Assembly (NCBI GenBank): GCA_046331425.1
Contig: JAXLQU010000007.1
Location: forward strand, 55,437 to 119,436
DNA from: Acidobacteriota bacterium
Lineage (GTDB): Bacteria > Acidobacteriota > Polarisedimenticolia > J045
Direction of reading: 5' to 3'
Length of the DNA stretch: 64,000 bases
Shown here: piece by piece, positions 3,276 to 38,333 of the stretch
Layout: every line of letters begins with the position of its first letter
Numbering within the stretch: the stretch's first letter is position 1
Program-made: the position numbers and the translations under genes
Notes under the pieces: model-generated
What the model saw: the letters and a program-made list of their open reading frames with translations, nothing else
Told to the model about the DNA's origin: nothing
Databases searched by the model: none

Positions 3276-5269
3276 ATTCGCGCCGGAACCGCGACACCCA
3301 TCAGGCCGAGAGCCTCGCGAAGTGAACGTTCCGCGACGAGCAGCACTGCAACTCGCGCCGTCCGCACGTCGTCACGTTCCTCTTTGAGCACAGGGTAGCG
3401 GTGATAAAAACCGTTGATCTCTTGAGCGAGTTCGAAGCCGTACTTGGCGAGCACGGCGAATTCCAAATTGTCGACGGCTTGGCGCACCGCTTCGGGGAGT
3501 CGGGCGGCGCGGTGGACCAACTTCCAATGATCCAGCGCGACATCGTCCGGCAACGCATCGAACGACGCGTGCGTCGCCGCTTCGCGTAGCTCGGCGACCG
3601 TGCTTGCGGTCTTCTCAGCGAGTTTGTCGAGAATTCTGGCGATGCGGACCAGCGCGTATTGAGCGTATGGCCCGGTTTCGCCCTCGAACGCCAGTGCCGC
3701 ATCGATATCGAACGCTACCACCTTGTTGCGGCCGAAACGCAGCATGTAATAGCGCAGCGCGCCGATCGCCAGGTCGAGCGCAATCCCTCTTGCATCGTCC
3801 GCGCTGAGTTCGGGGTTGCGCGTTTCGACTTCGATGCGCGCTTTGCGTTCGAGTTGATCGAGTAGATCGTCGGCTTTGACACCCAGGCCGCGCCGGCCAC
3901 TCATGTCCAGATAGGGGCGAGCACGCTCCTCGTCGCTGAGCGCAAGGTCGGGGCGCAACTGCTGCGCTGTCTGTGGTGAGAGCGCCACCATTTCATACGA
4001 GAAGTGAATCGATCGGGTTGCCTCGACAGCGTGTCCGAGCCGCTCCAGTCCTTGTTTGACGACGCGTTGCAGATACGCTTGCCGCACATCGATCACGTTG
4101 TAGACCGTCTCGGCTCGACCGAAGGCCGGTGGTGAGGCGACACCCTGACCCGGTGGAACCGTCTGGTACAACGCCTTGTTGTCGCGGTAGCGAAAGTCGT
4201 CGAGTCTGGCGTACTCGAAATCTCGTCCCAGGAGGCCGAACTTCCAGAGTTGATACGCGATGTCCTTGCCCACATAGGTGACAACGCCGTTGGAACGGAC
4301 GATCACCTTCTCATACTCCTGACCTCCGTCCTCTTCCTCGGCGTGAGGGAGATTCATGATCCAACATCCGGCCGTCTTGCCTTCGTGACTGAGCACGATC
4401 GCTTGCGACTCTTGCAGTCGATGAAACGCTTGTTGCCAAAAACGGTGGGCCAAGATATCGCTTTCCTTCGGCAGCAGGTCGTACTCGATACCGAGCCGAA
4501 GCATCGTTCGCAGGTGACAGCGCACGACGGCATCAGCGACGGCTCGCCCGAGTTTGGCGATCTCGGCGTCGCCATGCTCGAGTGCCGCGATTACCTGTTG
4601 TCGCTTCTGCAGTCGTGATTCGTCCTCTTCGTACCAGCGAGTCACGCGTGCGTAGAGATCCCACAGGTCGTGATCGATGCCGTGCCCGTCGACGGCCGCA
4701 CGTTGCTCGGCGCGGGTCTGAAGCGCCTGAACGCCGGCGTCGTCGAGCCCGGCGAGTTCCGTCAGTGCCACCAGGGCATCGGCCACCTGCACTCCGGTGT
4801 CGTCGATGTAGTTTTGCACTTCGACGGTGTGCCCCTGCGCGCGCAGGCAGCGTGCGAGCGTATCGCCCAGCACTGCATTTCGAAGATGGCCGATGTGTGC
4901 GGCCTTGTTGGGATTGATGTTGGTGTGCTCGACCACGATCTTGCCGCCCGGCCTGGTCGGCGCTGCGTGTGGCGCAAGCATCCGGTGCACGACGCTTGTC
5001 CGATCGAAGCGAATGTTGACGTAGCCCGGGCCCGCGACGTCAACCGTTCCCACCTCGGGAAGCGCGCGGATTGCGTCGGCGAGCGTGCCAGCGATTTCTC
5101 TCGGGGGGCGCTGCATGCTGCGCGCGAGTCCGAGCGCGATCGGCGTGGTGAGGTCGCCGTGGGCAGGGTCGGTAGGAATGCTTAGCGGAATGCTCTCCGG
5201 CGGCGCGGGCAGCGCGGCGCGGATAGCGCGTTCGACAGCGTCCTTGGCGGAGACAAACGGATCGAGCAT
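3272..5269 (-). CDS. argS: arginine--tRNA ligase
   Basis: 665 aa, ATG start. Class I HIGH motif AHIGHLRNAVLGD and typical ArgS anticodon-binding C-terminal half. Confidence 0.9.
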   Translation of the reverse strand: MLDPFVSAKDAVERAIRAALPAPPESIPLSIPTDPAHGDLTTPIALGLARSMQRPPREIAGTLADAIRALPEVGTVDVAGPGYVNIRFDRTSVVHRMLAPHAAPTRPGGKIVVEHTNINPNKAAHIGHLRNAVLGDTLARCLRAQGHTVEVQNYIDDTGVQVADALVALTELAGLDDAGVQALQTRAEQRAAVDGHGIDHDLWDLYARVTRWYEEDESRLQKRQQVIAALEHGDAEIAKLGRAVADAVVRCHLRTMLRLGIEYDLLPKESDILAHRFWQQAFHRLQESQAIVLSHEGKTAGCWIMNLPHAEEEDGGQEYEKVIVRSNGVVTYVGKDIAYQLWKFGLLGRDFEYARLDDFRYRDNKALYQTVPPGQGVASPPAFGRAETVYNVIDVRQAYLQRVVKQGLERLGHAVEATRSIHFSYEMVALSPQTAQQLRPDLALSDEERARPYLDMSGRRGLGVKADDLLDQLERKARIEVETRNPELSADDARGIALDLAIGALRYYMLRFGRNKVVAFDIDAALAFEGETGPYAQYALVRIARILDKLAEKTASTVAELREAATHASFDALPDDVALDHWKLVHRAARLPEAVRQAVDNLEFAVLAKYGFELAQEINGFYHRYPVLKEERDDVRTARVAVLLVAERSLREALGLMGVAVPARM

Positions 5270-6946: not shown

Positions 6947-7076
6947 GTCCCTCTCGTGGCGCCGAATATAAGGACGGAAGTAAACCCGGTCAAATCAACG
7001 GCTTCGGACCGGTAAGCGCGACTCCCGCAGCAGGGAAGAGGGGAGTGCCGGCGCAAGCATCGAGACCCATGAACTT

Positions 7077-7841
7077 CTATTGAGGTCGAGTGGCCTCGCC
7101 GTCGCCCTCGTCGCCGCTCGCCTGAAGAACGACGACCGTGATGTTGTCCTCGCCGCCGGCCTCGTTGGCCGCTGCCACTAGGCGCTCGCAAACACTCTGA
7201 AGGTCCCCCGCCGGCGCCGCGAGTAGGTCGGAGATCCGCTTGTCGCCCAACATGGTATTTAGGCCGTCGGAGCACAGCAGCACCAGATCGCCAGGCTGTA
7301 GCAGTTCCTGCTGAATATCCGGGACAACGACCGTACCGCTACCCAATGCCCGCGTGACGACGTTTCTGCGAGGATCACGCGCTGCCTGTTCGCGAGAGAG
7401 CATTCCCAGGCGGACGAGCTCATTGACGAATGAATGATCGGTCGTGATCTGTCTCAGATTTCCGTCGCGCAACAGATAGGCGCGCGAGTCTCCAACATGG
7501 GCTACCCAGAACTGACCGCCGTTGACGACCGCAACAACGACCGTGGTACCCATCCCGCGGCACTCCGGGCGTTCTTCCATCCGGTTGGCGATCCGCTGAT
7601 TCGCTTCCTCGACCGCTTGCAGGAGGAGTTCGGGAACCGAGAGCTCACCGTTTTGACTTCGATCGCGAAGGCTGTCGCCGATGGCCTCGATTGCCAGATG
7701 CGACGCGACTTCTCCCGCGGCGTGACCACCCATACCGTCTGCAACCGCGAAAACGCCGCTTGGCGTCTCGACCAACAGCGCATCTTCGTTGTGAGGACGG
7801 ATCAACCCTTTGTCCGTGAGTCCGGCGGCTAGAACCCTCAC
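7077..7841 (-). CDS. PP2C-family (PPM) Ser/Thr protein phosphatase
   Basis: N-term TDKGLIRPHNEDALLVE...FAVADGMGGHAAGEVAS is the classic PPM metal-binding signature. GTG start overlaps the TPR gene stop (GTGA). Confidence 0.85.
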   Translation of the reverse strand: MRVLAAGLTDKGLIRPHNEDALLVETPSGVFAVADGMGGHAAGEVASHLAIEAIGDSLRDRSQNGELSVPELLLQAVEEANQRIANRMEERPECRGMGTTVVVAVVNGGQFWVAHVGDSRAYLLRDGNLRQITTDHSFVNELVRLGMLSREQAARDPRRNVVTRALGSGTVVVPDIQQELLQPGDLVLLCSDGLNTMLGDKRISDLLAAPAGDLQSVCERLVAAANEAGGEDNITVVVLQASGDEGDGEATRPQ

Positions 7842-8900: not shown

Positions 8901-10049
8901 TCAGTGCTTCTTTCCAGGGGTGCGCACTCGACGCCGCTCCTCACGCGCCTCGAAGATCCGTTTGGCCTGGCGCCGAACCGCGTCAGACACGTTCCTATTC
9001 TTCAGCAACAGAGTGACGTCGCGGTCGTTGAGTCGGGCCAAGAACACCAGGGCAAGGTCGATCGGGCACCGCGGGTTCTTCACCAAGTTGTGTTGGATCG
9101 AGTAGTTGGAACCGAAGTCACGATGGCGCGCGACGAGCCGCATCACCACGTCATTGACGTTTCTACTCTTGGAAACGGTCTCAGCTTCTTGTTCGGTGAA
9201 CTTCGGGTTCTTGACCACCGAGGCCGCCACCAGGCGATTGCTGTCACGCACCAAGATCGCTCGCTCGGCCGCAGTTCCGAACAGTGCGACACGAAGCTTC
9301 TGTCCAACGTTCATCTTCGACAGCTTGGTGAAGACCGACGCGTCGTCATCCTCCTCGAGCCCACCCATCAACTCGCTTTTCTCTGATAGCTCACCGATGT
9401 CGATGTCGAGTTGCGGCAGCAGCGCCTCGACTTCCGCATCGATCCCGAGCGCTGCGAGAAACGGGTTTCGTGCCGGTTGCAAGGCTTGTGAGCCATCGAG
9501 CTTCGCCTCGGTGGCGGTCGCCGCCAGCATCTGACGCAAGCGATCGGCCTTCTCGATCTCCTCCAGGACATCGAGCAGTCGCCCGCGCGCGCCCTCGGGC
9601 AGCGCAGGGTTGGCGTGCAGCGTGGCTCCCAGACTCGAATGGGAGGCCAGTGCTACCTGGTTGAGCGAGAGGATCGACAGCGTCTCGGCATCGGAGCACT
9701 CACACAGTGCATGAAGAGTTTCCACGTCGAGTGACTGACGTGAGGCGAGTACCTGGCCCGCTTGCGGCCAGCGCGACAGTTCGCGGCTCAAAAACAGCAG
9801 GACAGAGGCGGGCGTTTCTCGATCGTTCGCCAGTTCGACAGCGGAGGCTGCGCTCAGTTGAGAGAGCGCCTCTTGTGCTGCCTGCGCGATCTCAGCATCG
9901 GAGTCGTTTCGCAACTCGATCTGGATCTGCGCCAGCTCGCCGAGCGCCAATGGCAGAGCGCCGCGCGCCGCCGCCACCCGCGCCGCCCTCGGCGCCGCAC
10001 CGCTGAGGATCCGCTCGACAACGCTCGACGCAGGCACGGCTGTAGTCAT
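8901..10049 (-). CDS. hypothetical alpha-helical repeat protein
   Basis: 382 aa, ATG start. Repetitive helical segments. Its ATG overlaps the stop of the downstream HTH gene (ATGA). No enzyme motif recognised. Confidence 0.55.
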   Translation of the reverse strand: MTTAVPASSVVERILSGAAPRAARVAAARGALPLALGELAQIQIELRNDSDAEIAQAAQEALSQLSAASAVELANDRETPASVLLFLSRELSRWPQAGQVLASRQSLDVETLHALCECSDAETLSILSLNQVALASHSSLGATLHANPALPEGARGRLLDVLEEIEKADRLRQMLAATATEAKLDGSQALQPARNPFLAALGIDAEVEALLPQLDIDIGELSEKSELMGGLEEDDDASVFTKLSKMNVGQKLRVALFGTAAERAILVRDSNRLVAASVVKNPKFTEQEAETVSKSRNVNDVVMRLVARHRDFGSNYSIQHNLVKNPRCPIDLALVFLARLNDRDVTLLLKNRNVSDAVRRQAKRIFEAREERRRVRTPGKKH

Positions 10050-14765: not shown

Positions 14766-15824
14766 GTGACTGAATCCGAACGGAGTCGTTACGCCTCTTT
14801 CGTGCCGCGAAGCTCTCGAGCTCGCGAGGCGCTCTGGCTCTGCAACTACTGCGGCTCCGATCGCCAGAGCCCTGAGGAATTGGGTCTGCAGCCGGATGTG
14901 GTGACGGAGTTGGCGCGTGCTCATCGGCTCTCCGCGGTTGCGGGCTTCAAGCTGCACGCGGCCCAGGCGGTCTCGACCGAATGGCAGCGCACCATGGTGC
15001 GCGACTGGCGCCAAGCGCTCGGTGACGAAACGTTGTTCGGCAGTGAACTCGAGCGAATCGATGCAGCGATGTCACGAGCGGGAATTCGTTTCGTCCTGTT
15101 GAAGGGCGCCGACTTGGCGCGACGCGGGATCTACCACCCTGGCCAGCGCACGCACAATGATCTTGATCTGCTGATCGAACCAAGGGATCGCGATGTCGTG
15201 CATCGGCTCTTGAAGGAACTGGGATTTCACTCCGATCATCCGGCGCCTGACGCCGCCGCGCGGCATTGGTTCGCCAGCACCTACCGCCACAGTACGCAGG
15301 CGCGAGTGCAGTTGGATCTGCATTGGGATCTTGGCGCTCCGGGACGCGGCGAGTGGAATATCACGCGCGTCATGGAAACGTCGGAACCGTTGGGGGAGTG
15401 GCGCGCCGCACGGCGGCTGTGTCGAGCCGATCTGTGGGCGCACCTAGCCCTCCACGCCGTTGCCTACCATGGCGCGGCCGGGCGATGGATCTGGTGGCTG
15501 GACATCCATCGATTGCATCAGCAGTCACCGGTGACCGCGGGAGAGTGGGAGATGGTGCGCGCGCGTGGCGCCGAGATAGCACTACAGGCAGCGCTGTTGC
15601 GTGCTGCGGGGCTATTCGACCCGCGCAGGTTCGCCGATCTCGAGACCCGCTGGCGGGCTCGAGCCGTGGCACGTTGGGGCGCTCGATTCGAACGTGGTGG
15701 AGATTCGCGGTTGAAGCGCTGGTTGATCGGGGCCCTGAGCTTGGATCGGCCGAGCGACCTCGGCCTCGCCGCGATGAGCGTGGCGCGGCGACTCTCCGAT
15801 TCAGTGCGAGCCAAGAAAACCTAA
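14766..15824 (+). CDS. nucleotidyltransferase-family protein (PF14907-like 'uncharacterised nucleotidyltransferase')
   Basis: IRFVLLKGADLARRGIYHPGQRTHNDLDLLIEPRDRDVVHRLLKELGF matches the KGxxL...R.x.DiDLLv core of this family. GTG start. The 3' end overlaps the convergent rSAM gene by 4 nt. Confidence 0.8.
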   Translation: MTESERSRYASFVPRSSRAREALWLCNYCGSDRQSPEELGLQPDVVTELARAHRLSAVAGFKLHAAQAVSTEWQRTMVRDWRQALGDETLFGSELERIDAAMSRAGIRFVLLKGADLARRGIYHPGQRTHNDLDLLIEPRDRDVVHRLLKELGFHSDHPAPDAAARHWFASTYRHSTQARVQLDLHWDLGAPGRGEWNITRVMETSEPLGEWRAARRLCRADLWAHLALHAVAYHGAAGRWIWWLDIHRLHQQSPVTAGEWEMVRARGAEIALQAALLRAAGLFDPRRFADLETRWRARAVARWGARFERGGDSRLKRWLIGALSLDRPSDLGLAAMSVARRLSDSVRAKKT

Positions 15825-16909
15825 CCGAGATCGCAAACGACCTGTCGTTCTCCGAACTTGGTCTTGAGCATTTCCTCGATGGTCTGCCCGCCCTTGGCGT
15901 GCGCTTCCTGGCGCACTTCGGCTTGCGTGCAGGCCCAGGAGTTGGGGCCGAAGAAGTCGCCGTCCTCGAACAGCGAATCCAGACTGCATCGACCACAGAA
16001 TGAATTGTTGTGGCAACCCGAGCAGGTCGGAAGGTCCTGCGAAGTGATGTTCCGCAGGCGCAGCAGCAAGGGGGAACTCTCCCAGATCTCGCGGAACGAC
16101 TGTTCTCTCAGCGAGCCGGCAGGTGGAAATCGCTGTGAGCACGGGTAGACCAGGCCGCGCGCTGAGATCAACGCGACGCGACGCGCCGTTGCGCAAATGG
16201 CCTGATCATCGTTCGGTGTGGTGCCCGATCCGGGCTGCACCGCAAGGCCGAGATGCGGATCGACGCAAATCCCGAGCAGGTCGGCGCGATTCATGCGGTG
16301 GGCGAGTGGGGAATCGTCGAGGTCATAACGAACCACGAGAGTAGGGTCGAAGCGATACTCCGCGCCGATTTCGCGCGCGAAAGAAATGACCTGCTGATAC
16401 TCCCGAGTCAGGCCAGCCATGATCGGCGCCTTGACCACGGTCGGGACCCCGCGTTCTCGCAGCATCCGGGCGGCACGCAGCGTCCGGGCGTGACTCCCCG
16501 GAATTCGCGTGATCTCGTCGTGCTTGGCGGCGTCCATCGAGTAGAGTGACAACTCGACGGCGACCACACCAATGCTGGCGATCTGATCAGCGACTGACTC
16601 TGTGATCAACGTGCCATTGGAAAAAATCCGCAACGCAAAACCGAGGTTGCGTGCGTAGCGCACCAATGGAAGCGCGTCTTTGCGGGTGAAGATCTCTCCC
16701 CCCGTAAACGTCAGGAACAAAGTCCCCATGGCATGGAGCTCATCGAGAATGCGTTCGGCTTCTGTTTGCGTCAGCTCGTCGTGAACGTCTCCCAGATCGA
16801 CGTAGCAGTGCTTACAGTCCTCGTTGCACCGATTGGTCAACTCGAACAGCACCGAGATCGGAATCTGCTGGCGCAACGCTTCGGTCAGAACCTTGGTCAT
16901 TCCGATCAT
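15821..16909 (-). CDS. radical SAM/SPASM-domain peptide-modifying enzyme (PqqE-like), no fused RRE domain
   Basis: LFELTNRCNEDCKHCYVD carries the CxxxCxxC radical SAM cluster motif near the N-term, and TFTGGEIF is the SAM-binding GGE motif. The C-terminal SPASM domain has 7 Cys including CSGCHNNSFCGRC. The maximal ORF starts with TTG at 16954; I chose ATG 16909 (MIGMTKV...), which has GGAG 9-12 nt upstream. Confidence 0.85.
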   Translation of the reverse strand: MIGMTKVLTEALRQQIPISVLFELTNRCNEDCKHCYVDLGDVHDELTQTEAERILDELHAMGTLFLTFTGGEIFTRKDALPLVRYARNLGFALRIFSNGTLITESVADQIASIGVVAVELSLYSMDAAKHDEITRIPGSHARTLRAARMLRERGVPTVVKAPIMAGLTREYQQVISFAREIGAEYRFDPTLVVRYDLDDSPLAHRMNRADLLGICVDPHLGLAVQPGSGTTPNDDQAICATARRVALISARGLVYPCSQRFPPAGSLREQSFREIWESSPLLLRLRNITSQDLPTCSGCHNNSFCGRCSLDSLFEDGDFFGPNSWACTQAEVRQEAHAKGGQTIEEMLKTKFGERQVVCDLG

Positions 16910-17196
16910 GAGCTGATCTCCGTCACACGCTTCACGAGCGCTTGAGGACTCCAAGCGGTTGCGGCTTCGGTCCGGGTGTGGCCCTCAGCGACGCTAGTTT
17001 CTTGGGCTTGGGGCGGAAGAACGCGAATTCAGGCAAGCGATCGATGGCGCCCCAAAAACTCTGATCCGGCGTGAACTCGAGTCGGTACGGGTGACTCTGC
17101 GGAAGCACCTCACCGCGCTAAGGGTAATGCGGACTGAAATCGGCGGGAGCGGTGCTCCGCCGGCCTTCAAAGAGTGCGGCAGCGCATCGGCTGGTT

Positions 17197-17644
17197 TCAA
17201 TCAGTGACTCGATGCTGGGGTGCAAGGCCAAGAAGAAGAGTGCGCTTCCAAGGGGCCGAGGGAATTTTTACGTGCCAGAAGGGGTTCCGTGGACGCGAGT
17301 TCCGGATCCCACATCTGCGGACCACTACCATTTCATCCGCGAGCACAATCTGACCAGCATCTCGAGCAGCGATCGTGCTCTTGCCTGCGCCCGATCGACC
17401 CCGAGAAGACCACGCCGAAGTGGTCGCGCTTTACCACAGCCGCCGAGTGCAGCAGAGTGCTTCCTTCACGAAGCAGCACACCGCCCAGGGCGATCCGAAC
17501 GAACTGGGTCCAGATGCGCGAGGAATCGAGAATCGCCGACCCGTCCGAGCTCGAACTCCGCCCAGACCCTCGAAGCCGTCGCCCTCGATTCTTGCAGCGG
17601 ACAGGCTGCCGCTCGCCGCCGGCGGCGATGTAGGATGCAGCCGC
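17197..17644 (-). pseudogene. HprK-like P-loop kinase remnant (frameshifted, internal stops, lower GC)
   Basis: One frame gives ...RIALGGVLLREGSTLLHSAAVVKRDHFGVVFSG. A +1 shift at a C4 run (17399-17402) continues with GRSGAGKSTIAARDAGQIVLADEMVVV. Joined, this is the HprK C-domain signature (hydrophobic strand, G.SG.GKST, about 10 aa, L.ADD/E). Only about 100 codons are recognisable. Flanking sequence is AT-richer with stops in all frames. Confidence 0.45.
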
Positions 17645-17854
17645 TCAGGCCGACGGGTCGGGTCGACCTTGAGTGTCCAGCTGAACTCGGGGCGCCCACT
17701 TTCCTTCAAGAACCCCGCGTACGTTCGCGCAGCCGGGTCGAGAACTCGGCTCCTGTCACGGAAATGTCGAAGGCCTGCGATTTGGAGAATCGCGGGGTCA
17801 GCAAGCGGGAGAATGAACTGGGCCGCGCTGTTGCAGCTCGATTCGGAGACGAAA

Positions 17855-18001
17855 TCAATCGCGAGCACCGGCGCCGCAGTTGAATGGCTGACTGGTGCAA
17901 GAGGCCGAGAAGACCACCGGCTCGTAGTCCTCTTCCCATTCGATGGCAGGAACCTGCCATGTCTTCTTGTTGGTCGAACTGGATACGGTCGTCGAATTCA
18001 T
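17855..18001 (-). CDS. candidate RiPP precursor peptide, 48 aa (not in ORF track)
   Basis: ATG at 18001 lies 27 nt downstream of the stop of 18029..18676, with GGGGG 6-10 nt upstream. Product MNSTTVSSSTNKKTWQVPAIEWEEDYEPVVFSASCTSQPFNCGAGARD then TGA. It lies between the PqqD-like gene and the rSAM gene on the same strand. Whether it is really coding is unproven. Confidence 0.4.
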   Translation of the reverse strand: MNSTTVSSSTNKKTWQVPAIEWEEDYEPVVFSASCTSQPFNCGAGARD

Positions 18002-18028: not shown

Positions 18029-18676
18029 TCAACGGCCGCCTTCGATTCTAAAGGAAGTCGCGCTGGAAGAGAGCACCTTTCCAGCTTTCACCGCCGAGAT
18101 TTCCACCTGCCAAGTCCCGTAGAGCCCGTGACCGGTAACCCATGTTCCGCTCACCGGGAGCGGTACAGCCACGAACGCCGCGTTCTTCATCTGTCGCGGG
18201 GTCAATGATCCGGCTGGAAGTGCCCGCGCCAAACGTTTCGCGCGCAGGATGGGAAGGGTTTCGACTGGATGTGGGGCCAGGTCATCACGCAACACCGCGG
18301 TCTGTGTTCCTGCCGGATCGACTGGGTCGATCCGGGTCTCGTAGATGTTGCCATCCGGCAACACGAACTTGGCGACTTGATCGAACCCAGCGTCCCCGAC
18401 TCGGGTGCGGTCGTAGACTGCGATGATGTAGAGCTGAAGCGTCTGTGGTCCATCGAATGGACCTGTATTCAGCCGATTCGGCGCGGTTCGTGACTGCAAC
18501 AGCGATTGAGGGTCGACGTCGGTCACGAACACCCCTACAACAGCGTTGCCCGCAATCGGCTCCGGTTTTGGTTTGGCGATGATCGCAGCATGAGCGGTGA
18601 CGCCGGGGAGTCCCAACGTGATCGCGAGGGCGGCGAGCAGCTTTCGATCGATGCGCATCATAGTCGTCATCCTCAT
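18029..18676 (-). CDS. secreted hypothetical protein
   Basis: 215 aa. Signal peptide MMRIDRKLLAALAITLGLPGVTAHAA. The true start is probably the second or third ATG (18664/18661), which has GAGG upstream. No motif recognised. Confidence 0.65.
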   Translation of the reverse strand: MRMTTMMRIDRKLLAALAITLGLPGVTAHAAIIAKPKPEPIAGNAVVGVFVTDVDPQSLLQSRTAPNRLNTGPFDGPQTLQLYIIAVYDRTRVGDAGFDQVAKFVLPDGNIYETRIDPVDPAGTQTAVLRDDLAPHPVETLPILRAKRLARALPAGSLTPRQMKNAAFVAVPLPVSGTWVTGHGLYGTWQVEISAVKAGKVLSSSATSFRIEGGR

Positions 18677-18716
18677 CTCGGCAGTGGCAGATGGACTGCC
18701 GCTGACCGGTTTTCAA

Positions 18717-21076
18717 TCAGTTGATCTTCACCCAGTGGTACGTGCCGCCCGTGGTACCGACAACGATCCCTTGGTTGGTGCCGTTGTTGTAGTCGAAGGT
18801 TGGTGTACCGATCGTCGTTCCGGCCTCGACGGTCCAAGAACGAACGACCGCGCCCGAGGTGGCGTTGATCTCGTAAAGTTTTCCGTCGGAGGATCCCACA
18901 TACGCGTAGGTGTCGTTGCCTCCGGTGACGTCACGCAGCACGATCGGCGCACTCGGCGACGCAATGCTCGTGGTCCAGTAGGTGGCTTCGTCGAACGTAC
19001 CGTCTCCGAGTAACTTGATGCCGTGCACCTTCGAGTCCGTGGTCCAGACGATCCAGTTCACCCACAAGGCGTTCTCGGCAATGCTATTTCCCGGCGCCAC
19101 GCCGCGGACCGCGCCGTCGCTTTGCGCACAGCCGCCAGCGACCGTGCAACTGTCCAGACTCAGCAGCGAGCCACCCGACGCAACCAGGGCGTTGTAGACA
19201 TACACGTCGCCGGTGGTGTTTCCCGCGACCAGGATCCGATCCGAGCCTTTCTTGGCAATCGCAAGGCCAGCGTCGATGTCTCCGATGCCGCTGATTACGG
19301 CGTATTCGGGCACATTGAATGCCGGCGTCGAGTTGACTTCGAGGACCACGATCGACTCGCCACCATCGTCTCGCACGCCGACGTAAACCAAGTTGTTGGC
19401 GCTATCGCGGTACTGGATCGTGGGTGCGCCGTTGGAGATACCGAGAGTACCGCCACCGTTGTAGCTGTCTCGCAGCGTCGCCAGATCATGGCTGTACATC
19501 AGAATCTTGTTGTTGGCGGCGCCGCAGCGAGTCGCAACCACGACGACATCGTCGCTGTTGTTGGAGTTGGCGTCGAAGCCGTCGAGCATGACAACAGGAG
19601 ATGTTTGCAGGAGGCCCGAAGTGCACCCAGCGTCGCCACCGGTGCCGGCGACGTTTCGTGTCGCCTCCGCGCCCGAGGTGCCATCGTCGGCGGAGTAGCG
19701 GTATAGGCGACCCGGCTCTGCGACGAAACGTAGCAGGTGTAGTCCGTTCCTCCTGCATCGAGATCGTCGCACAGCGGTCGTGCTTGTACAGCACCGCCGG
19801 CGAGCGGTGGGACCCAACCGCCACGGCTTCCATCGGTCTCACTCATCCGTTGGAGCAAGCGATCGTTGCCGATCCCAATCACGTATGCAGCCGGAATCGC
19901 TCCGACCGGAGCCAAGGTTGTGGCGTTGGTCTTGAACGCGAACTTGAAGGACGAGACCGCGCGCGGATAGCCGGTCGTCGCCACGCCGCTCGAGTAGTTG
20001 TAGTCGCCGTCGTAGGCGAAGGCCTTGTAGTAGTAGGTTGTGCCATTGGAGACCAACAGGTCGTTGCAGGAGTCGTTGGGGCTATCGCCTGAGTCGACGA
20101 TGCACGTTACCGACGCCGTACCGATGGAGTCGCCGAGGCTGTAGGAGGTGCCGGCGACCGGTGCATCCGTCACCGCCGAGCCGGTCTGACTCAGAACCAA
20201 CATTCCTGCGTAGTCAGTGTCGAGCGGGTTCTCCCACTCGGCGGTGACGATCAGATCGGAGGACGCCGCTGTCACCTTGCTTGGATTGCCTGGGGGGACC
20301 GTGTCAGCCAGCGTAAATGCCCACTGATTCCCGGTTGTCGCCGAGGCAGAACTGATATCGCCGCTGGCCTTGTACCAAAGGCCGACCGTGCCCGCGCCGT
20401 TCTCACTGCCGACCAGGTTCGGGTGGTCGGCGGCCGCCGCCCCCGCTTCGCTGACGATCTCGACAAACGCTTCGTCGGTGACGGTATCCAGAGCGAGTTG
20501 CACGGTTACCAGAACATCGCCGTCGATGTTCGGCACACTCGTCCACTGCACGACGAAGCAATGGTCGTTTCCTCCAGCGCCATCGCGATCGACATTGCAA
20601 GTGGTTGACTGGTACTTGACTGAACCACCGGCACTGGGATCCAGGTCGTCACCGTACGCATAGACCGCGTTGTTCGGGGGCCCCGAATCGGGCACGCTGG
20701 AGCCACCGGCGTCATTGGTGTAACCGGCGCCAAAAGACACGTACCCGTTGGACGAGATGTACGCGCCGGAGTAGGTGCTGCCGTACCAAGTGAACGAGCC
20801 ACCGATGTTGGTGACCAGCTTGTAGCAATCGTCGCCGCTACATCCACTGGGCTTCCAACCGGTCACGGTCGTGCCGGTTCCCGAAATGTCCGGTATCCAG
20901 TTGTTGGCGTCGAGTTGGCAATAGTAGCCGCCGGTGTCTTTGACAGCGGCCCCCGTGCACTCCGAGTCGGTTGCGAAACTGATCGTCGACAGGGTTCCAA
21001 CGACGACGACTGCGAATGCACGACACAACGTCGGCCACGTCCTCTTGTTGCGACCCATCTTCTCGCTCCCGTTCAT
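18717..21076 (-). CDS. large secreted Cys-rich protein with C-terminal beta-propeller-like repeats; interrupted by a 1-nt frameshift
   Basis: ORFs 19499..21076 and 18717..19817 are consecutive frames of one gene. The upstream frame is real to ...GGTDYTCYV and the downstream frame is real (GC3 about 80%) from ...AEPGRLYRYSADDGTSG. Restoring one A in the A3 run at 19726-19728 gives ...CYVFVAEPGRLY.... Signal peptide MGRNKRTWPTLCRAFAVVVVGTLSTISFA. Its ATG overlaps the PqqD-like stop (ATGA). Confidence 0.6.
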
Positions 21077-21483
21077 AACCTGTCCTCCGAGGCGTTCCCC
21101 GGCGCCGCGGCCTCAGGCTCGCGTTGCGAGCCCGAAGGGCCCGTGGGCGCCTCGACGATCAACCCACGAGAGGCCAGCTCTCGTAGGAATGCGTGCACGT
21201 CGGGAGCGGCAGCCGCCTCGTCCAGGCCGGCGCTCGCCGCGAGTACCCGCGTTACGTCTTCCACAGTGCGGACCCCGTCGAGCAGTCCCCAAACCTGGGA
21301 ACCGTTTTCGTTGAGTCCGAGTAGTTTTCTTCCTTCGTAGTGCAGCACTACGGCCTTGCCGCCCAATGTTTGCTTGGCCAGACGCGGGTTGTGTGAGAAG
21401 CGCGTTGCCGTCGAGAACGGAATCGGCCGCTCTGAGGAGGGGACCACTTTTCCTGCCTTTCCTCTCGTCGGCGGTGTGGGCAC
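21073..21483 (-). CDS. PqqD-family protein (stand-alone RiPP recognition element-like)
   Basis: LAKQTLGGKAVVLHYEGRKLLGLNENGSQVWGLLDGVRTVEDVTRVLAASAGLDEAAAAPDVHAFLRELASRGLIV is a textbook PqqD/RRE sequence. The maximal ORF starts with GTG at 21483. An internal GTG at 21447 with AGGAAAGG upstream is the more likely start. Confidence 0.8.
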   Translation of the reverse strand: MPTPPTRGKAGKVVPSSERPIPFSTATRFSHNPRLAKQTLGGKAVVLHYEGRKLLGLNENGSQVWGLLDGVRTVEDVTRVLAASAGLDEAAAAPDVHAFLRELASRGLIVEAPTGPSGSQREPEAAAPGNASEDRL

Positions 21484-33020: not shown

Positions 33021-33113
33021 CTCAGGGCTCCTTGCGGCCGCAGGCTTTTTTCGGCCCGGCCCGCGCGCGTGGCAGAATAGCGCGCTTTTCACAGCCCACC
33101 ACAGGAGCGATCC

Positions 33114-36100
33114 ATGCCGTATCAACGCCCGCGCGGCGACCACAAGTTCGCTGCGATCGAGCGCGAGATTCTCGAGTTCTGGAAGCGCGAACGGATCTTC
33201 GAGCGGTCGATGGCGGCCCGCGTCGGTTGCCCCACGTTCGTGTTCTACGAGGGGCCGCCGACCGCGAACGGGCTCCCTCACAACGGCCATGTCCTGACAC
33301 GCGTCGTCAAGGACCTGTTCCCCCGCTACAAGGCGATGCGCGGCTTCAGCGTTCCGCGCAAAGGGGGTTGGGACACGCACGGCCTACCGGTCGAGGTCGA
33401 GGTCGAAAAGAACTCGGGATCCACGGCAAGGCCGAAATCGACGCGTACGGGATCGAGCCTTTCACCAAACGCTGCATCGAGAGTGTCTTTCGCTACACCA
33501 AGGAGTGGGAGTCGCTTACCGAAAGGATCGGCTTCTGGGTCGATCTGTCCGAAGCCTATGTCACCTATCACAAGCCGTATGTCGAATCGGTCTGGTGGGC
33601 GCTGTCGCGATTGTTCGAAAAGGGGCTGTTGTACCAGGGGCACAAAGTGGTTTGGTGGTGGCCGCAGGGTGGGACCGCGCTCAGCTCCGCGGAGGTCGGA
33701 CTGGGGTATCGCAGCGTCGACGATCCCGAAGTGATCGTGCGGTTCCGCAGTCTGAATCGGCCGGGTGTCTCCTTCCTGGCGTGGACGACCACACCGTGGA
33801 CATTGCCCAGCAATGTTGGTCTCGCGGTCGGTGCCGAACTCGACTACGTGTTGGCCCGCGTCGAGCGTGACGGGCATGCTCCGGAGGATGTGATCGTCGC
33901 GGAGGCGCTCGTTCAACGCGTGCTGGGGGAGACGGGCGTCACGGTACTGGAACGTTTCAAAGGCAAGGCGCTGGAAGGTGAGCGGTACGAGCCGCTGTTT
34001 CGCTACGTCGAACCGCAAGGCGGTAAAGCGTGGGAACTCGTCACGGCCGATTTCGTCGGTGCCAACGATGGGACCGGAATCGTCCACTGTGCTACCGGCT
34101 TTGGTGAGGACGATTTTGCATTGACCAAGACCAAGGGGTTGGCGCTGTTGCAGTTGGTGCAGCCGGACGGACGTTTTCCTGCAGAGGTCTCCGACTTCGC
34201 CGGTCGCTACATCAAGGAGGCGGATCGCGACATCGTCAAGCATTTGAAAGCTCGCGGGCTGGTGTTTCACGAGGGGACCTACCGTCACGACTACCCCTTT
34301 TGCTGGCGCGCGAGCAGTGATCCTCTGATTCAATACGCTCGCCCGGCTTGGTTCATTCGCACCACGGCACAGATCCAGCACGCAATCGAGAACAACCGGG
34401 CGATCAACTGGTTGCCCGACGCGATCAAGGACGGGCGGTTCGGCGACTTTCTCGCCAACAACGTCGACTGGGCGCTCTCGCGTGAACGTTACTGGGGGAC
34501 TCCACTCCCGATCTGGGAGTGCTCGGCGTGCGGCCAGCAGGAGGCCTTTGCGCGTTTGGATGATCTGCTCGCGCGCAATCCGCAAGCCCTCGACCACTGG
34601 CACGAAGCCAAGCGCCAAGACCCGACGTTGTCGGAACACCTGGTCGTGCACAAGCCTTGGGTTGACTCGATTCTTGTTCCCTGCGGCAAGTGCGGCTGGA
34701 CGATGCGCCGCGTGCCCGAGGTGATCGATTGCTGGTTCGACTCCGGCTGCATGCCGTTCGCGCAGTGGGGCTTTCCGCACACAGGCCGCGAGTCGTTCGC
34801 CGCCGCGTTCCCTGCCGACTTCATCTCCGAGGCGATCGATCAAACGCGTGGCTGGTTCTATTCGTTGCTGATGATTTCCACCTTGGTGTTCGACGAAGAG
34901 ACGCAGCGCGAGTTCGACTTGCAACCGCAGCGTGGCTACCCACACCCCTACAAAAGCTGCATCGTGCTTGGTCACGTCTGCGACCCGGAAGGGAAGAAGG
35001 AATCCAAAAGCAGCGGCAACTACACCTCGCCCGATTTGGTGCTGGAAGGGAAGTTCACGCTCACCATCGGCGCTGAGGATCGAATCAAGGGCGGGGTTGC
35101 CGCGGACGGCGCCGTGCTGTTGGCAGCTCAGGTGAAGACTTTGGGTCTGGCCGAGGGGGCACCGCTTACGGTCTGCCGTGTCGATGATCCGGCGCGCCGC
35201 TTCGTGGCCAAACTCGTTTCCGGGACCGCGGGGAAGGAAGCGATCGTACTCGGAGCTGCGGTGCGCGAGGCGTTGGGATTACATGCCGGCGACAAAGTTC
35301 AGATCGATGTCTTGGACGACCCGCCGGGTGCCGATGCCTTCCGCTGGTTTTTCTACAGTTCAGGTCCGCCGTGGAACAATACACGCAACTCGTTACGCGC
35401 GATTCGCGACGGACAGAATGAGTTCTTGGTGCGCTGGCAGAATGTGTTGTCGTTCTTCCTGATCTATGCCGCGATCGATGGGTTCGACCCGGCCGCCGAC
35501 AATCCAGCCCGCGGACAGAAGATTCCAACTGCAAGCGGTGGGCGCGGCTATCGACCAGCGCGTCAGCGTGCGCTGTTGGATCGATGGGTGCTCAGCGAAC
35601 TGGCGATCACCGCGCAGCATGTGACCGAGGCACTGGACGGCTATCGAATCTATGAAGCGGCTTTGGCGCTGAAGGAGTTCATCGACGGCCTGTCGAACTG
35701 GTATGTGCGTCGCAGCCGCGACCGATTCTGGAAGGGGGACCTTACCGACCCATCGAAAGCCGATGCGTATTGGACGCTATGGGAGAGCCTGGTCGGGGTC
35801 TCACAGCTCGCGGCGCCGTTCGTTCCGTTCTTCTCGGAGCACAGTTGGCGGACGTTGGTGACCGCTGCCTGGCCCACGGCAGAACCTGGCTCCGTGCATC
35901 TTTCCGATTGGCCGACATTTGCCGCCGAGTCGGTAGATCAGCCGCTTTCACGCGCGATGTCGCTGGCGCGCGAAACCGTGTCGCTCGGTCTGTCGGCGCG
36001 CGCCGCACACAAACTGCGAGTTCGCCAGCCGCTGGCAACAGCGCGCATCTTCCTTGCCGACCGCAGCGCGCAATCCGAACTCGAGTCGCTGTCGGCGATC

Positions 36101-36703
36101 GTCGCCGAGGAACTGAATGTCAAGCAGGTTGCGTTCGGTGGCGACGCAGACACCTACGTGCACTGGAAGATGCAACCTAACTTCCGCGCGATCGGGCCGA
36201 AGTACGGCACGCTCGTGCCGCAAATCAAACAAGTACTGGCGACCGTCGATGCTGCAACCCTTCGCCGTCAACTCGATGCCGAGGGTGCAATCCAAATCGT
36301 GGTGGAAGGGCAAACCGTCAGACTCGGCCCCGAAGAGATCGCGATCTCGCTTTCGGCTCGAGACCACTACGCAGCCGCCTCGTCGCCGAGAGTGGTGGTG
36401 GTCTTGGAAACCGATCTCAGCCCGGAGCTGATCGAAGAAGGGTTGGCGCGGGAGCTGATCAACCGGATCCAATCGCTGCGCAAGGAACTCGACCTGGACT
36501 ACACCGATCGGATCGCGGTTGCGTGCGAGGCCGCACCGGAGCATGCCGCCACGCTCGCCGCATTGATCGCTCGACACGGGGACTTGATTGCTGGGGAAAC
36601 GCTGGCCGTCGAGCTCGCCTCAGCACGTGCATCGGAACATCAGACCGTGCGCCATGACGAGTTGGAAGGAATTGCCGTGACGCTCGGCGTTTCGCGTCGC
36701 TGA
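33114..36703 (+). CDS. ileS: isoleucine--tRNA ligase (type 2), with an apparent -1 frameshift at 33406-33410
   Basis: N-term [23 protein letters not shown] (HIGH-type) ...[15 protein letters not shown] is in the frame of ORF 33114..33734. The rest of IleS ([14 protein letters not shown]... to the end) is in the frame of ORF 33032..36703. The junction is GTCGAAAAGAACTC; an A5 run instead of A4 would restore EVEKELGI. AGGAG lies 6 nt upstream of the ATG. Confidence 0.85.
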
Positions 36704-36716
36704 TGAGGACCTGCCG

Positions 36717-37865
36717 GTGACGCGACTGTACATGGACTACAACGCGACCGCGCCACCGGCTCCCGGCGTGGCGGAGGCGATCGCGGAGTTCTTTCAACAT
36801 CACTGGGGGAATCCGTCTTCGTCGCACGCCGAGGGACGCCGAGCGCGGATCGCGTGCGAGCAAGCACGCGCTCGCGTGGCGCACGCGTTGGACTGCCAAA
36901 CCGAGGAGGTTGTTTTCACCTCAGGCGGCTCGGAGGCCGATGCGCTCGCGATTCGAGGTTTGTTCGAGTCAGGGAGAGTCGACGCGTTGGTGCTGGGTGG
37001 CTTGGAGCATCCCGCCGTGATGGCGACTGCACGGTGGCTGGCCGATCACCGCAACGCCAAGGTCCAGCTCACGCGCGTCGATCGGCACGGGCGTGTTACG
37101 GCGGAAGCGGTCGCCGAGGCGCTCGATCGCCTCGAGCGGCACGATCGACCACTCGTTTCGGTGATGCTTGCCCAGAACGAACTCGGCACGCTCAACCCGC
37201 TCGACGAGATCTCAGCGATAACTCGCGCGCGCGGCGCGTTGCTTCACAGCGATGCCGTGGCTGCGTTCGGCAAGATCCCGATCTCTGTGAGTAATCTGGG
37301 CGTCGATCTGCTCACCGTTTCGGCTCACAAGATCGGAGGCCCGGCCGGTGCAGGAGCGTTGATCGTGAGGCGCGAACTTCAGCCGGCGGCTTTCTGTCAA
37401 GGAGGCCACCAAGAGCAAGGACGTCGACCCGGAACGGAGCCGCTCTCGCTCTTGGTTGGATTCGGGGTAGCGGCACAAGCGGTCCCGCAGCGAGTGGCGA
37501 GTTGTGCATCCGCGGCGCCGATGCGCGCACGACTAGAAACACAACTCATGGCGACGATCCCAGATGTTTTGGTGGCCGGCCTCGAAGCACCCAGACTCCC
37601 CAACACGGTGGCGGCGATCTTTCGAGATGTCGTCGGAACGAGCGTCGTCGCGGCGTGCGACGCTGCAGGCCTATCGATTTCGGCAGGCGCGGCCTGTCAC
37701 TCGGCGACTGGATCGCCCACGATGCGCGCGCTCGCGCTACCCGATGGGTATCGGGAGGGGCTCGTCCGACTTTCAGTGGCGCCCACGGTCCAAGCCGGGG
37801 AGATCGATCGCGCCGTCACGATACTGGCCAACGCTGTCGGCGCGTTGCGCGGGGCCGCGGCGTGA
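36717..37865 (+). CDS. cysteine desulfurase (class V aminotransferase, IscS/NifS-like)
   Basis: (M)TRLYMDYNATAPP N-term like IscS; SAHKIGGPAGAGALIV PLP-Lys region. GTG with GAGGA 8 nt upstream. Confidence 0.85.
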   Translation: MTRLYMDYNATAPPAPGVAEAIAEFFQHHWGNPSSSHAEGRRARIACEQARARVAHALDCQTEEVVFTSGGSEADALAIRGLFESGRVDALVLGGLEHPAVMATARWLADHRNAKVQLTRVDRHGRVTAEAVAEALDRLERHDRPLVSVMLAQNELGTLNPLDEISAITRARGALLHSDAVAAFGKIPISVSNLGVDLLTVSAHKIGGPAGAGALIVRRELQPAAFCQGGHQEQGRRPGTEPLSLLVGFGVAAQAVPQRVASCASAAPMRARLETQLMATIPDVLVAGLEAPRLPNTVAAIFRDVVGTSVVAACDAAGLSISAGAACHSATGSPTMRALALPDGYREGLVRLSVAPTVQAGEIDRAVTILANAVGALRGAAA

Positions 37866-38116: not shown

Positions 38117-38333
38117 TCCACGGGGTAGCGACGGTAGCCGCTGGCGGGATTCTGACAGGTGAGCTCGACGCCCGGAAATTAGACGCTTCCCCCGACGCGA
38201 CTGTCTCGGCAAGCCTCCGCATTGTTCCGTAATGGTCCACGTTGCCCTCTCCCCTTGTCCAATTCCCCTCAAGCGCTGAGGTTATTTGCCGAAAGGAACT
38301 CCGTACGCGACGGGATCAACTGGGGAGAGGTGA

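What the first reader, a model, noticed from the sequence alone, without database searches (positions are those of the whole stretch)
17197..17644. HprK-like P-loop kinase signature split across two frames at a C4 homopolymer, embedded in a lower-GC decayed stretch
Minus-strand frame 3 reads ...LHSAAVVKRDHFGVVFSG. After a +1 slip in the run CCCC (plus strand 17399-17402), frame 1 reads GRSGAGKSTIAARDAGQIVLADEMVVV. Joined, this is the HprK/P C-domain fingerprint (beta-strand, G.SG.GKST, about 10 aa, L.ADD/E).

Only about 100 codons are recognisable. The flanks (16955-17200 and 17450-17850) have stops in every frame and AT-richer patches such as GGGAATTTTTACGTG. This looks like a degraded kinase gene rather than a single sequencing error.

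It matters because HprK-like kinases are the phosphorylating tailoring enzymes of lasso-type RiPP clusters, and this one sits exactly between the candidate precursor and the rSAM gene.
Basis: partly seen in the sequence, partly recalled or inferred. Interest (0 to 1): 0.6.

Follow-up and report, generated by a model that had tools for sequence, protein, structure and literature searches.

The report
Kinase-like gene garbled in one assembly
The broken kinase-like gene is real in this sequence, but two other assemblies of an almost identical strain carry it intact, and the damage is far too dense and too sharply bounded to be evolutionary decay, so it is most likely a local assembly error in an ordinary, conserved gene.

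Summary
On the minus strand the HprK-type motif is split at the C4 run 17399-17402 (LHSAAVVKRDHFGVVFSG | GRSGAGKST...LADEM).

It is not a 100-codon remnant. All 297 codons of a ScmC-family (PF27840) gene can be traced across 16932-17790. GC is not lower (0.627 against 0.630 for the window).

Two public assemblies of a 99.9%-identical strain (CAZSWZ010000022.1 and Logan SRR26348421) carry the gene intact. So do all 11 Acidobacteriota relatives with sequence upstream of the rSAM gene, and dN/dS is about 0.1.

Against CAZSWZ010000022.1 the window has 28 indels and about 30 mismatches inside 17090-17841. The other 38.6 kb has only 29 differences (Poisson P about 1e-93). The block starts 51 nt upstream of the start codon and stops 156 nt short of the stop codon. 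Indels roughly equal substitutions. The allele is otherwise the same type as the intact one.

The same contig has homopolymer frameshifts in ileS and in a bactofilin gene. The block is already in the deposited MAG (locus tags U0V87_07285 to 07290, no kinase call).

Best reading: a local consensus artefact in an indel-prone assembly (about 0.66). A real, strain-specific allele is about 0.2. Gradual pseudogene decay is rejected. The cluster is of rSAM/SPASM-PqqD type, not lasso.

The parts
16932..17790 (-). Disrupted copy of a 297-codon ScmC-family (PF27840), HprK/PEPCK-fold P-loop gene. The start codon is lost through a 3-nt deletion (GCGATGATT to GCGATT). The stop codon TGA is at 16932-16934.
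   Evidence: Alignment to the intact genes L067:3085-3978 and L001:5197-6090. tblastn E 1e-43 in two frames. Family assignment. Fold.
17090..17841 (.). Sharp-edged block of 28 indels (20 deletions totalling 52 nt, 8 insertions totalling 12 nt) and about 30 mismatches relative to a 99.93%-identical strain. It begins 14 nt after the peptide gene's stop codon and ends 156 nt before the kinase-like gene's stop codon.
   Evidence: The rest of the 39.3-kb comparison holds only 29 differences.
17399..17402 (+). It carries one extra base relative to the intact gene (GGG to GGGG on the coding strand). It is one of 23 frame-changing indels.
17374..17400 (-). Walker A / P-loop GRSGAGKST. It corresponds to the invariant G138 S140 G143 K144 T146 of the family.
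17815..17844 (-). Remains of a 14-bp stem-loop that follows the peptide gene's stop codon in relatives. In the window it is destroyed by the first three lesions of the block.
   Evidence: L067 -28.7 kcal/mol with z -5.1, L001 -28.4, L002 a 13-bp stem of different sequence, window z -0.3.
17855..18001 (-). Conserved 48-aa peptide gene and candidate precursor (MNSTTVSSSTNKKTWQVPAIEWEEDYEPVVFSASCTSQPFNCGAGARD). It is annotated U0V87_07290 in the deposit.
   Evidence: dN/dS 0.06-0.13. Accession.
15821..16909 (-). Intact radical SAM/SPASM gene directly downstream (362 aa from the ATG).
   Evidence: dN/dS 0.01-0.02.
14766..15824 (+). Intact NTP_transf_5 (PF14907) nucleotidyltransferase gene, convergent with the rSAM gene.
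21073..21447 (-). PqqD-family gene (124 aa as called) at the head of the operon.
18029..21076 (-). Two genes for secreted proteins between PqqD and the peptide gene. One encodes 210 aa (18029-18661). The other encodes 786 aa (18717-21076) and is frameshifted in the window at 19714-19747.

Best explanation
The organism's lineage carries an ordinary, functional 297-aa gene here, and the window shows a locally corrupted rendering of it.

The gene. It is a ScmC-family P-loop protein with the PEPCK/HprK fold. It sits directly upstream of an rSAM/SPASM gene in a conserved Acidobacteriota peptide-modification operon: PqqD, two secreted proteins, a 48-aa peptide, the ScmC-like gene, rSAM/SPASM, and a convergent NTP_transf_5.

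The damage. A 752-nt block of raw-read-like noise (about 7-8% error: deletions > insertions, mismatches about half of events) sits in an otherwise clean, deposited MAG contig. The most likely cause is a stretch of an indel-prone (long-read-type) assembly that escaped consensus polishing. The frame split at the C4 run is one of 23 frame-changing indels.

Shown versus inferred. Shown: the intact gene in near-identical strains, the block's boundaries, the lesion spectrum, and the homopolymer frameshifts elsewhere in the contig. Inferred: the technical cause, because sequencing technology and reads were not available.

Inferred function of the intact protein. It is probably an ATP-dependent modification (most likely phosphorylation) of the 48-aa peptide. 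This would work alongside the PqqD-type recognition protein and the rSAM/SPASM cross-linking enzyme. NTP_transf_5 could then decorate the phosphate, by analogy with PsmK/PsmN in pseudomycoidin.
For: 1. Intact gene in near-identical strains. Two separately built public assemblies carry the window's exact rSAM protein. Both have an intact 297-aa PF27840 gene and an intact 786-aa gene.

2. Extreme local clustering. Over window 1-39337, identity to CAZSWZ010000022.1 is about 99.93% outside the block (29 differences). Inside 17090-17841 there are 58 differences. Poisson P is 1e-93, and 3e-61 for indels alone.

3. The flanks show real strain variation. The 23 point differences outside are 14 synonymous, 7 non-synonymous and 2 intergenic, with 18 transitions and 5 transversions. 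At that divergence a neutral 750-nt stretch would collect about one substitution.

4. Same allele type. The block matches L067 at 74 of 81 sites where L067 and L001 differ. It shares 15 of 20 L067-branch derived states, and 4 of the 5 exceptions lie next to indels.

5. Unnatural spectrum. There are 28 indels against about 15-30 substitutions, 12 indels are 2 nt or longer, and lesions are spread evenly.

6. Edges ignore the gene. Five lesions fall in the upstream intergenic hairpin. None falls in the last 156 nt of the ORF.

7. Indel-prone contig. The same contig has A5 to A4 in ileS, which puts the HIGH-motif N-terminus out of frame. It also has G3 to G2 in a bactofilin gene and a net -1 change in the 786-aa gene.

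8. The gene is under purifying selection and strictly syntenic. dN/dS is 0.09-0.10. It lies uninterrupted upstream of the rSAM gene in L001-L003 and L005-L013.

9. The block was not added later. Consecutive PGAP accessions and locus tags run from the rSAM gene to the peptide gene with no kinase call. The 525-aa fragment is MFN7965477.1.
Against: - No reads, coverage or quality values were available, and the technology behind the U0V87 MAG is unknown. If it is Illumina-only or HiFi, such a noise block is hard to produce and the lesions would have to be real.
- The window comes from a distinct strain (23 natural-looking SNPs), so 'intact in the same strain' is not strictly shown.
- Deletion bias (20:8) and transition bias (about 18:10) are also what natural mutation gives.
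- A 750-nt block with sharp edges is the size of a typical recombination tract.
- A second gene of the same operon is also frameshifted, which could hint at biological loss of the pathway.
- The two intact assemblies may have been built from the same reads, so they may not be fully independent.
Confidence: 0.66

Rival explanations
1. The lesioned allele is real and strain-specific. The kinase-like gene was silenced very recently. One route is an unusual, local, indel-rich mutational event. Another is a roughly 750-nt recombination tract importing an already decayed allele from a closely related strain.
For: - The block is in the deposited MAG.
- The window is a distinct strain with natural-looking SNPs.
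- The block has the size and sharp edges of a recombination tract.
- Deletion and transition bias fit natural mutation.
- A second gene of the operon is frameshifted.
- One clean site (17611) carries the ancestral state shared with L001 and L002 rather than the L067 state.
Against: - Indels are at least as frequent as substitutions. Natural bacterial pseudogenes are generally reported to show several-fold more substitutions than indels (general knowledge, not tested here).
- The allele shares nearly all L067-branch derived states, so any donor lineage was very young.
- No local mutagenic mechanism that produces 28 spaced indels is known.
- ileS and bactofilin homopolymer frameshifts in the same contig show that its indels are not trustworthy.
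- The rSAM gene, the peptide gene, NTP_transf_5 and PqqD are untouched.
Confidence: 0.2
2. This is the first reader's reading: an old pseudogene that decayed gradually under relaxed selection, leaving about 100 recognisable codons in a lower-GC stretch.
For: There are many frameshifts and stops in all frames. The start codon is lost.
Against: - The flanks are 99.93% identical to a strain with the intact gene. At that divergence about one change is expected in 750 nt, against 58 observed.
- The whole gene is still traceable.
- GC is not lowered.
- The last 156 nt of the ORF carry no change, and lesions extend upstream of the ORF.
- Closer and more distant relatives are all intact, with dN/dS about 0.1.
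Confidence: 0.03
3. A single sequencing error or programmed frameshift at the C4 run splits an otherwise intact gene.
For: The extra base lies in a homopolymer.
Against: Twenty-two further indels that are not multiples of three lie along the gene, and the start codon is lost. Correcting one base does not restore an ORF.
Confidence: 0.01

Closest known systems
ScmC of the SynChlorMet cassette (NCBIfam TIGR04249; Pfam PF27840)
   Same: It is the best-scoring curated family for the intact protein (E 2.6e-9). PF27840 is precomputed for it and for nearly all of the 120 homologues listed (of 309 found). The context is the same kind: an HprK-like P-loop protein next to PqqD-like and rSAM/SPASM genes.
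   Different: It scores 36.9 bits against a cut-off of 125, so it is not an equivalog. The neighbouring PqqD and rSAM proteins also fall far below the ScmD/ScmE/ScmF cut-offs. This operon has one rSAM gene, two secreted proteins and an NTP_transf_5. No function has been shown for ScmC.
HprK-related kinase A/B systems (TIGR04352, TIGR04355)
   Same: The P-loop region matches (E 4e-7 and 1e-8). Co-occurrence with PqqD-family and NTP_transf_5 genes is recalled from the family descriptions and was not tested here.
   Different: Scores are far below the 200-bit cut-offs, and only about 50-65 residues around the P-loop align.
Lasso-peptide tailoring kinases PadeK/PsmK with the nucleotidyltransferase PsmN
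   Same: An HprK-family kinase phosphorylates a precursor peptide. An uncharacterised NTP transferase then adds hexose to the phosphate (PMC6993621, PMC8498205). Here an HprK-like gene and an NTP_transf_5 gene flank the peptide and rSAM genes.
   Different: No lasso cyclase or B-protease is present. The peptide ends in ...GAGARD, not in Ser. The core enzyme is rSAM/SPASM. Homology to PsmK and PsmN was not tested.
HPr kinase/phosphorylase and ATP-dependent PEP carboxykinase (the shared P-loop fold)
   Same: The AF2 model (pLDDT 91.9) matches PEPCK at E 5e-8 and HprK/P at E 5e-5 to 4e-4. The LH...GxSGxGKS...LxADE signature is conserved.
   Different: Sequence identity is 11-22%. Pfam Hpr_kinase_C scores 19.1 bits, below the gathering score of 33.3. 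No HprK N-terminal domain hit was returned.
Unpolished or low-consensus blocks in long-read metagenome assemblies
   Same: The profile is about 7-8% error with deletions > insertions, and mismatches about half of events. The edges are sharp and unrelated to gene boundaries. Residual homopolymer frameshifts occur elsewhere in the contig.
   Different: The technology of the source MAG is unknown. The rest of the contig is of high consensus quality.

Membership tests
HPr kinase/phosphorylase superfamily (PEPCK-like P-loop fold) | Walker A GxSGxGKS(T/E), preceded by a conserved His and followed about 12-15 residues later by an acidic L-x-A-D-(D/E) motif | tested here: met
   H123, G138, S140, G143, K144, T146 and D161 are invariant in 55 homologues. 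The motif is readable in the window but split over two frames.
HPr kinase/phosphorylase superfamily (PEPCK-like P-loop fold) | Three-dimensional fold similar to solved HprK/P or PEPCK structures | tested here: met
   Model pLDDT 91.9. Foldseek PDB gives PEPCK 2pc9 at E 5e-8 with TMq 0.43-0.53, and HprK/P 1ko7 at E 5e-5 and 1jb1 at E 3e-4.
HPr kinase/phosphorylase proper (Pfam PF07475 Hpr_kinase_C) | Score at or above Pfam's gathering threshold | tested here: not met
   19.1 bits against 33.3. Only residues 122-172 align.
ScmC (TIGR04249 equivalog) / SynChlorMet cassette | Score at or above the curated cut-off (125 bits), with neighbours that meet the ScmD, ScmE and ScmF cut-offs | tested here: not met
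   ScmC 36.9 bits. ScmD 22.3 bits against 100, ScmE 85.2 against 400, ScmF 71.3 against 400.
Pfam PF27840 (ScmC family, broad) | Significant match to the family model | tested here: inconclusive
   PF27840 is listed as a precomputed hit for the intact protein and almost all homologues. The local Pfam copy returned no PF27840 hit, so no score was seen.
Lasso-peptide biosynthetic cluster | Asparagine-synthetase-like lasso cyclase (C) and transglutaminase-like leader peptidase (B/B2) near the precursor | tested here: not met
   Neither domain appears among the genes called with Pfam over about 39 kb.
Evolutionary pseudogene | Disrupted reading frame while orthologues are intact | tested here: met
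   23 frame-changing indels and loss of the start codon. Orthologues are intact in L001-L003 and L005-L013.
Evolutionary pseudogene | Lesion load commensurate with the divergence of the flanking DNA, with a substitution-dominated spectrum | tested here: not met
   58 lesions against 0.57 expected from the flanks. Indels are about as numerous as substitutions.
Evolutionary pseudogene | Lesions reproduced in independent sequence data of the same lineage | tested here: not met
   The two other assemblies of the 99.9%-identical strain are intact. No fragment ORF from the block exists elsewhere among 15 billion proteins. Reads were not available.
Assembly/consensus artefact | Drop in depth or base quality, or lack of read support, across the block | not testable with these tools
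   No reads or quality values are accessible. The only support is indirect: homopolymer frameshifts in ileS and bactofilin in the same contig.

The most novel reading that the evidence does not exclude
The 752-nt lesion block is real. In one strain of this Acidobacteriota population, an extremely recent, indel-dominated local mutational burst, or import of a heavily damaged allele, silenced only the ScmC-like gene. The rSAM, precursor, PqqD and NTP_transf_5 genes stayed perfectly intact. This would be a natural knock-out of one tailoring step and a hint of an unknown local mutagenic process.
Probability: 0.15. Interest if true: 0.7.

Novelty: not a real feature. Interest (0 to 1): 0.15.

Why it matters
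Taken at face value, the finding would say that a conserved peptide-modification operon has lost its kinase-like step in this organism. That would change any prediction of the product. The evidence says the lineage has the gene intact, so the operon should be treated as complete.

It is also a caution for genome scans. A dense, sharp-edged patch of indels in an otherwise clean MAG contig imitates a pseudogene, and comparison with near-identical assemblies exposes it.

The intact operon is an uncharacterised RiPP-like system. It comprises PqqD, two secreted proteins, a 48-aa peptide, a ScmC-like P-loop enzyme, rSAM/SPASM and NTP_transf_5, and its ScmC-like/rSAM core is conserved across Acidobacteriota (the full set only in the closest relatives). 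It may be worth studying in its own right, but that is separate from this finding.

Tried and rejected
- **Gradual decay.** Rejected by the 100-fold local excess of differences over the flanks.
- **Import of a divergent allele from an L001- or L002-like lineage.** Rejected. The window matches L067 at 74 of 81 sites informative between L067 and L001. The apparent matches to L001 are alignment artefacts next to indels, apart from one clean site.
- **Single-base error or programmed frameshift at C4.** Rejected, because 22 other frame-changing indels are present.
- **Lower-GC island.** Not present.
- **Invertible or repeat-flanked segment as the cause of a bad consensus.** No meaningful inverted or direct repeats bracket the block.
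- **Lesions added after deposition.** Rejected. PGAP accessions and locus tags of the source MAG skip the kinase and include the 525-aa fragment.
- **Backup paralogue in the window.** None found.
- **JGI metagenome scan** for either allele around the C run gave 0 hits.
- **Exact look-ups that found nothing on record:** the 377-aa rSAM (TTG start), the 48-aa peptide, three other window proteins and the 525-aa fragment. Neither the source contig nor an independent copy of the lesioned allele could be fetched.
- **Literature searches** for this cluster type, for SynChlorMet and for the run or assembly accessions found nothing.
- **A GC3-based scan for other ORF-poor patches** was too crude to use.

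Full report
**1. What the sequence shows**

On the minus strand one frame reads ...ILDSSRIWTQFVRIALGGVLLREGSTLLHSAAVVKRDHFGVVFSG. A second frame continues GRSGAGKSTIAARDAGQIVLADEMVVVRR. The switch is at the plus-strand run CCCC 17399-17402. The joined 93-aa peptide hits NCBIfam HprK_rel_A (E 3e-4), HprK_rel_B and ScmC. The core observation is therefore correct.

The claim of lower GC is not. The flagged stretch has GC 0.627 and its flanks 0.626 and 0.646. The window mean is 0.630 with sd 0.023 for windows of that size.

**2. Surroundings**

All genes below are on the minus strand except NTP_transf_5.

| Window coordinates | Gene |
|---|---|
| 21073-21447 | PqqD-family |
| 18717-21076 | secreted protein, 786 aa in relatives |
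| 18029-18661 | secreted protein, 210 aa |
| 17855-18001 | 48-aa peptide |
| about 16932-17790 | the disrupted gene |
| 15821-16909 | radical SAM/SPASM |
| 14766-15824 (+) | NTP_transf_5, convergent |

GT4 glycosyltransferase genes flank the cluster. No lasso cyclase or B-protease domain appears among the genes called over about 39 kb. The cluster is of the rSAM/SPASM-PqqD type, not the lasso type.

**3. Relatives**

A genome scan with the rSAM protein found 66 loci. Thirteen Acidobacteriota-type loci (L001-L013) have rSAM identity of 34-99%.

- L001 has an intact 297-aa ORF between the peptide gene and the rSAM gene, and L002 an intact 317-aa ORF.
- tblastn with the intact protein gives uninterrupted matches directly upstream of the rSAM gene, on the same strand, in L001-L003 and L005-L013. 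L004 lacks upstream sequence.
- dN/dS of the gene among L067, L001 and L002 is 0.09-0.10, at dS up to 1.4. It is a functional, selected gene.

**4. The decisive comparison**

An exact-sequence look-up of the window's 362-aa rSAM protein returned two public contigs. One is CAZSWZ010000022.1 of GCA_964611105.1 (66,318 nt). The other is Logan SRR26348421_36813. Both have an intact 297-aa gene marked PF27840:ScmC and an intact 786-aa gene.

More of that record was then fetched. The window aligns to it from position 1 to 39337. All figures below are against CAZSWZ010000022.1.

- Outside 17080-17850 there are 23-25 point differences and four indel events.
- Inside 17090-17841 there are 28 indels and about 30 mismatches.
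- The flanks predict 0.57 differences for this block, against 58 observed (Poisson P 1e-93). For indels alone the figures are 0.08 expected and 28 observed.

The point differences outside the block are 14 synonymous, 7 non-synonymous and 2 intergenic, with 18 transitions and 5 transversions. That is real strain-level variation of about 0.06%. A neutral 750-nt stretch would collect roughly one substitution at that divergence.

**5. Nature of the block**

- The window matches L067 at 74 of the 81 sites where L067 and L001 differ.
- It shares 15 of 20 states derived on the L067 branch. Four of the five exceptions lie beside indels, and one (17611) is clean.
- The block is therefore the L067-type allele with private lesions added. 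It was not imported from a divergent lineage.
- The lesions are 20 deletions (52 nt) and 8 insertions (12 nt). Sizes run 1-6 nt plus one of 12 nt, and 23 are not multiples of three. They are spread evenly, with about 15-30 substitutions among them.
- The block starts 14 nt after the peptide gene's stop codon, inside a conserved hairpin and 51 nt upstream of the start codon.
- It ends 156 nt before the gene's own stop codon.
- At the density inside the block, 156 untouched nucleotides within the ORF would be very unlikely if the whole gene were decaying.
- All 297 codons can still be traced. 'About 100 recognisable codons' is an underestimate.

**6. Quality of the source contig**

The three indel loci outside the block all break genes.

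- At 33405 an A5 run is A4. This puts the N-terminal ~100 residues of IleS, including the HNGH (HIGH) motif, out of frame.
- At 38092 GGG is GG, inside a 123-aa bactofilin gene.
- At 19714-19747 there is a +2 change and a -3 change. The net -1 shift splits the 786-aa gene into 525-aa and 366-aa ORFs.

A frameshifted ileS is not credible biology. These are consensus indel errors of the kind left by long-read assemblies. That inference rests on general knowledge, because the technology is unknown.

**7. Provenance**

Exact protein look-ups identify the window's source as an NCBI MAG (Acidobacteriota bacterium, locus-tag prefix U0V87, contig 172,783 nt).

- The 525-aa fragment is MFN7965477.1 (U0V87_07305).
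- The rSAM protein is MFN7965473.1.
- The 48-aa peptide is MFN7965474.1 (U0V87_07290).

Accessions and locus tags are consecutive from the rSAM gene to the peptide gene. The deposit therefore has no CDS or pseudogene call for the kinase-like gene. The lesion block is part of the deposited sequence and was not added later.

None of the fragment ORFs of the block occurs elsewhere among about 15 billion proteins. A JGI metagenome scan for either allele found nothing.

**8. What the intact gene is**

- The 297-aa protein (P0001) has 309 homologues at E <= 1e-5. Nearly all of the 120 listed carry PF27840, and those with a source name are called hypothetical.
- Curated models match only around the P-loop and below their cut-offs: ScmC 36.9 bits (cut-off 125), HprK_rel_B 34.6 (200), HprK_rel_A 29.4 (200), and Pfam Hpr_kinase_C 19.1 (33.3).
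- H123, G138, S140, G143, K144, T146 and D161 are invariant in 55 homologues.
- An AlphaFold2 model (pLDDT 91.9) matches ATP-dependent PEP carboxykinase (E 5e-8, TMq up to 0.53). It also matches HPr kinase/phosphorylase (1ko7 E 5e-5, 1jb1 E 3e-4).
- It is an HprK/PEPCK-fold P-loop protein of the ScmC family. It is not HprK proper and not an ScmC equivalog.

**9. How the intact system probably works (inference)**

In lasso clusters the HprK-family kinases PadeK and PsmK phosphorylate the precursor's C-terminal Ser before folding. The uncharacterised NTP transferase PsmN then adds hexose to that phosphate (PMC6993621, PMC8498205).

Here an HprK-like protein, a PqqD-type recognition protein and an NTP_transf_5 protein accompany an rSAM/SPASM enzyme and a conserved peptide. 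The peptide's C-terminal half, EWEEDYEPVVFSASCTSQPFNCGAGARD, is invariant between strains whose synonymous sites are near saturation (dS about 0.9-1.6).

The most likely scheme has four steps:
- PqqD-guided binding of the peptide.
- Cross-linking at the two Cys residues by rSAM/SPASM.
- ATP-dependent phosphorylation by the ScmC-like enzyme.
- Decoration of the phosphate by NTP_transf_5.

None of these steps was tested. The peptide does not end in Ser.

**10. Verdict**

The motif and the frame split are real features of the sequence as given. The interpretation as an evolutionarily decayed remnant is not supported.

| Reading | Confidence |
|---|---|
| Local consensus artefact in an indel-prone MAG assembly | about 0.66 |
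| Real, strain-specific lesioned allele | about 0.2 |
| Gradual pseudogene decay | about 0.03 |
| Single error or programmed frameshift at the C4 run | about 0.01 |

The real-allele reading cannot be excluded without reads. It would be interesting because no known process makes such an indel-rich, sharply bounded patch. Gradual decay and a single-base error are both rejected by the alignments. The remaining probability, about 0.1, is left unassigned.

Noticed in passing
window 19714-19767 (gene 18717-21076, minus strand): The gene for a 786-aa secreted protein is split into 525-aa and 366-aa ORFs. The cause is a small cluster of changes relative to L067 and L001: AT to CGGC (+2), (CCT)3 to (CCT)2 (-3), and one mismatch. 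The gene is intact in L001, L002, L067 and L068. The 525-aa fragment is deposited as MFN7965477.1.
   Followed up: partly
window 33405 (ileS, ORF 33032-36703, plus strand): A homopolymer is A4 here and A5 in CAZSWZ010000022.1. This puts the IleS N-terminus, including the HNGH (HIGH) motif, out of frame with the rest of the gene. It is almost certainly a consensus error and marks the contig as indel-prone.
   Followed up: partly
window 38092 (about 37861-38232): GG here and GGG in the public record, inside a 123-aa bactofilin (PF04519) gene, which is therefore frameshifted in the window.
   Followed up: partly
L067:3026-3059, L001 about 5138-5171, L002 about 7072-7103; window about 17815-17844: A 14-bp GC-rich stem-loop lies directly after the stop codon of the 48-aa peptide gene (-28.7 kcal/mol, z -5.1). 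It is kept in L001, and in L002 with a different sequence. This resembles the attenuator hairpins that follow precursor genes in RiPP operons. In the window it is destroyed.
   Followed up: partly
window 17855-18001; L003:6773-6892; L007:6114-6296; L010:6139-6318; L012:567-752: Small ORFs upstream of the ScmC-like gene share a pattern: K-x-(W/Y)-x-x-P-x-hydrophobic-x-x-E...(Y/F)-E-(P/T)...S/A-C-x7-8-C...R. The N-terminal part recalls PqqA-type leader motifs (from memory). Examples are KKTWQVPAIEWEEDYEPVVFSASCTSQPFNCGAGARD and KKPYVKPEVRHERVFETRALSCGKVQTTQQACYFNRRSS. No NCBIfam or Pfam family matches.
   Followed up: partly
L003:81-6726: In this more distant relative the pair of secreted-protein genes (786-aa-like and 210-aa-like) appears twice in tandem, with the PqqD gene between the two copies.
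   Followed up: no
L037:8001-13299: A bacterium (UBA2214) has a ScmC-like gene (9432-9878) sitting among three rSAM/SPASM genes. This is closer to the published multi-rSAM SynChlorMet cassette layout than the window's operon.
   Followed up: no
window 1-39337 against CAZSWZ010000022.1: Outside the lesion block the two assemblies differ at 23 point positions (14 synonymous, 7 non-synonymous, 2 intergenic; 18 transitions). The window is therefore a distinct but 99.94%-identical strain. The public record ends at window position 39337.
   Followed up: yes
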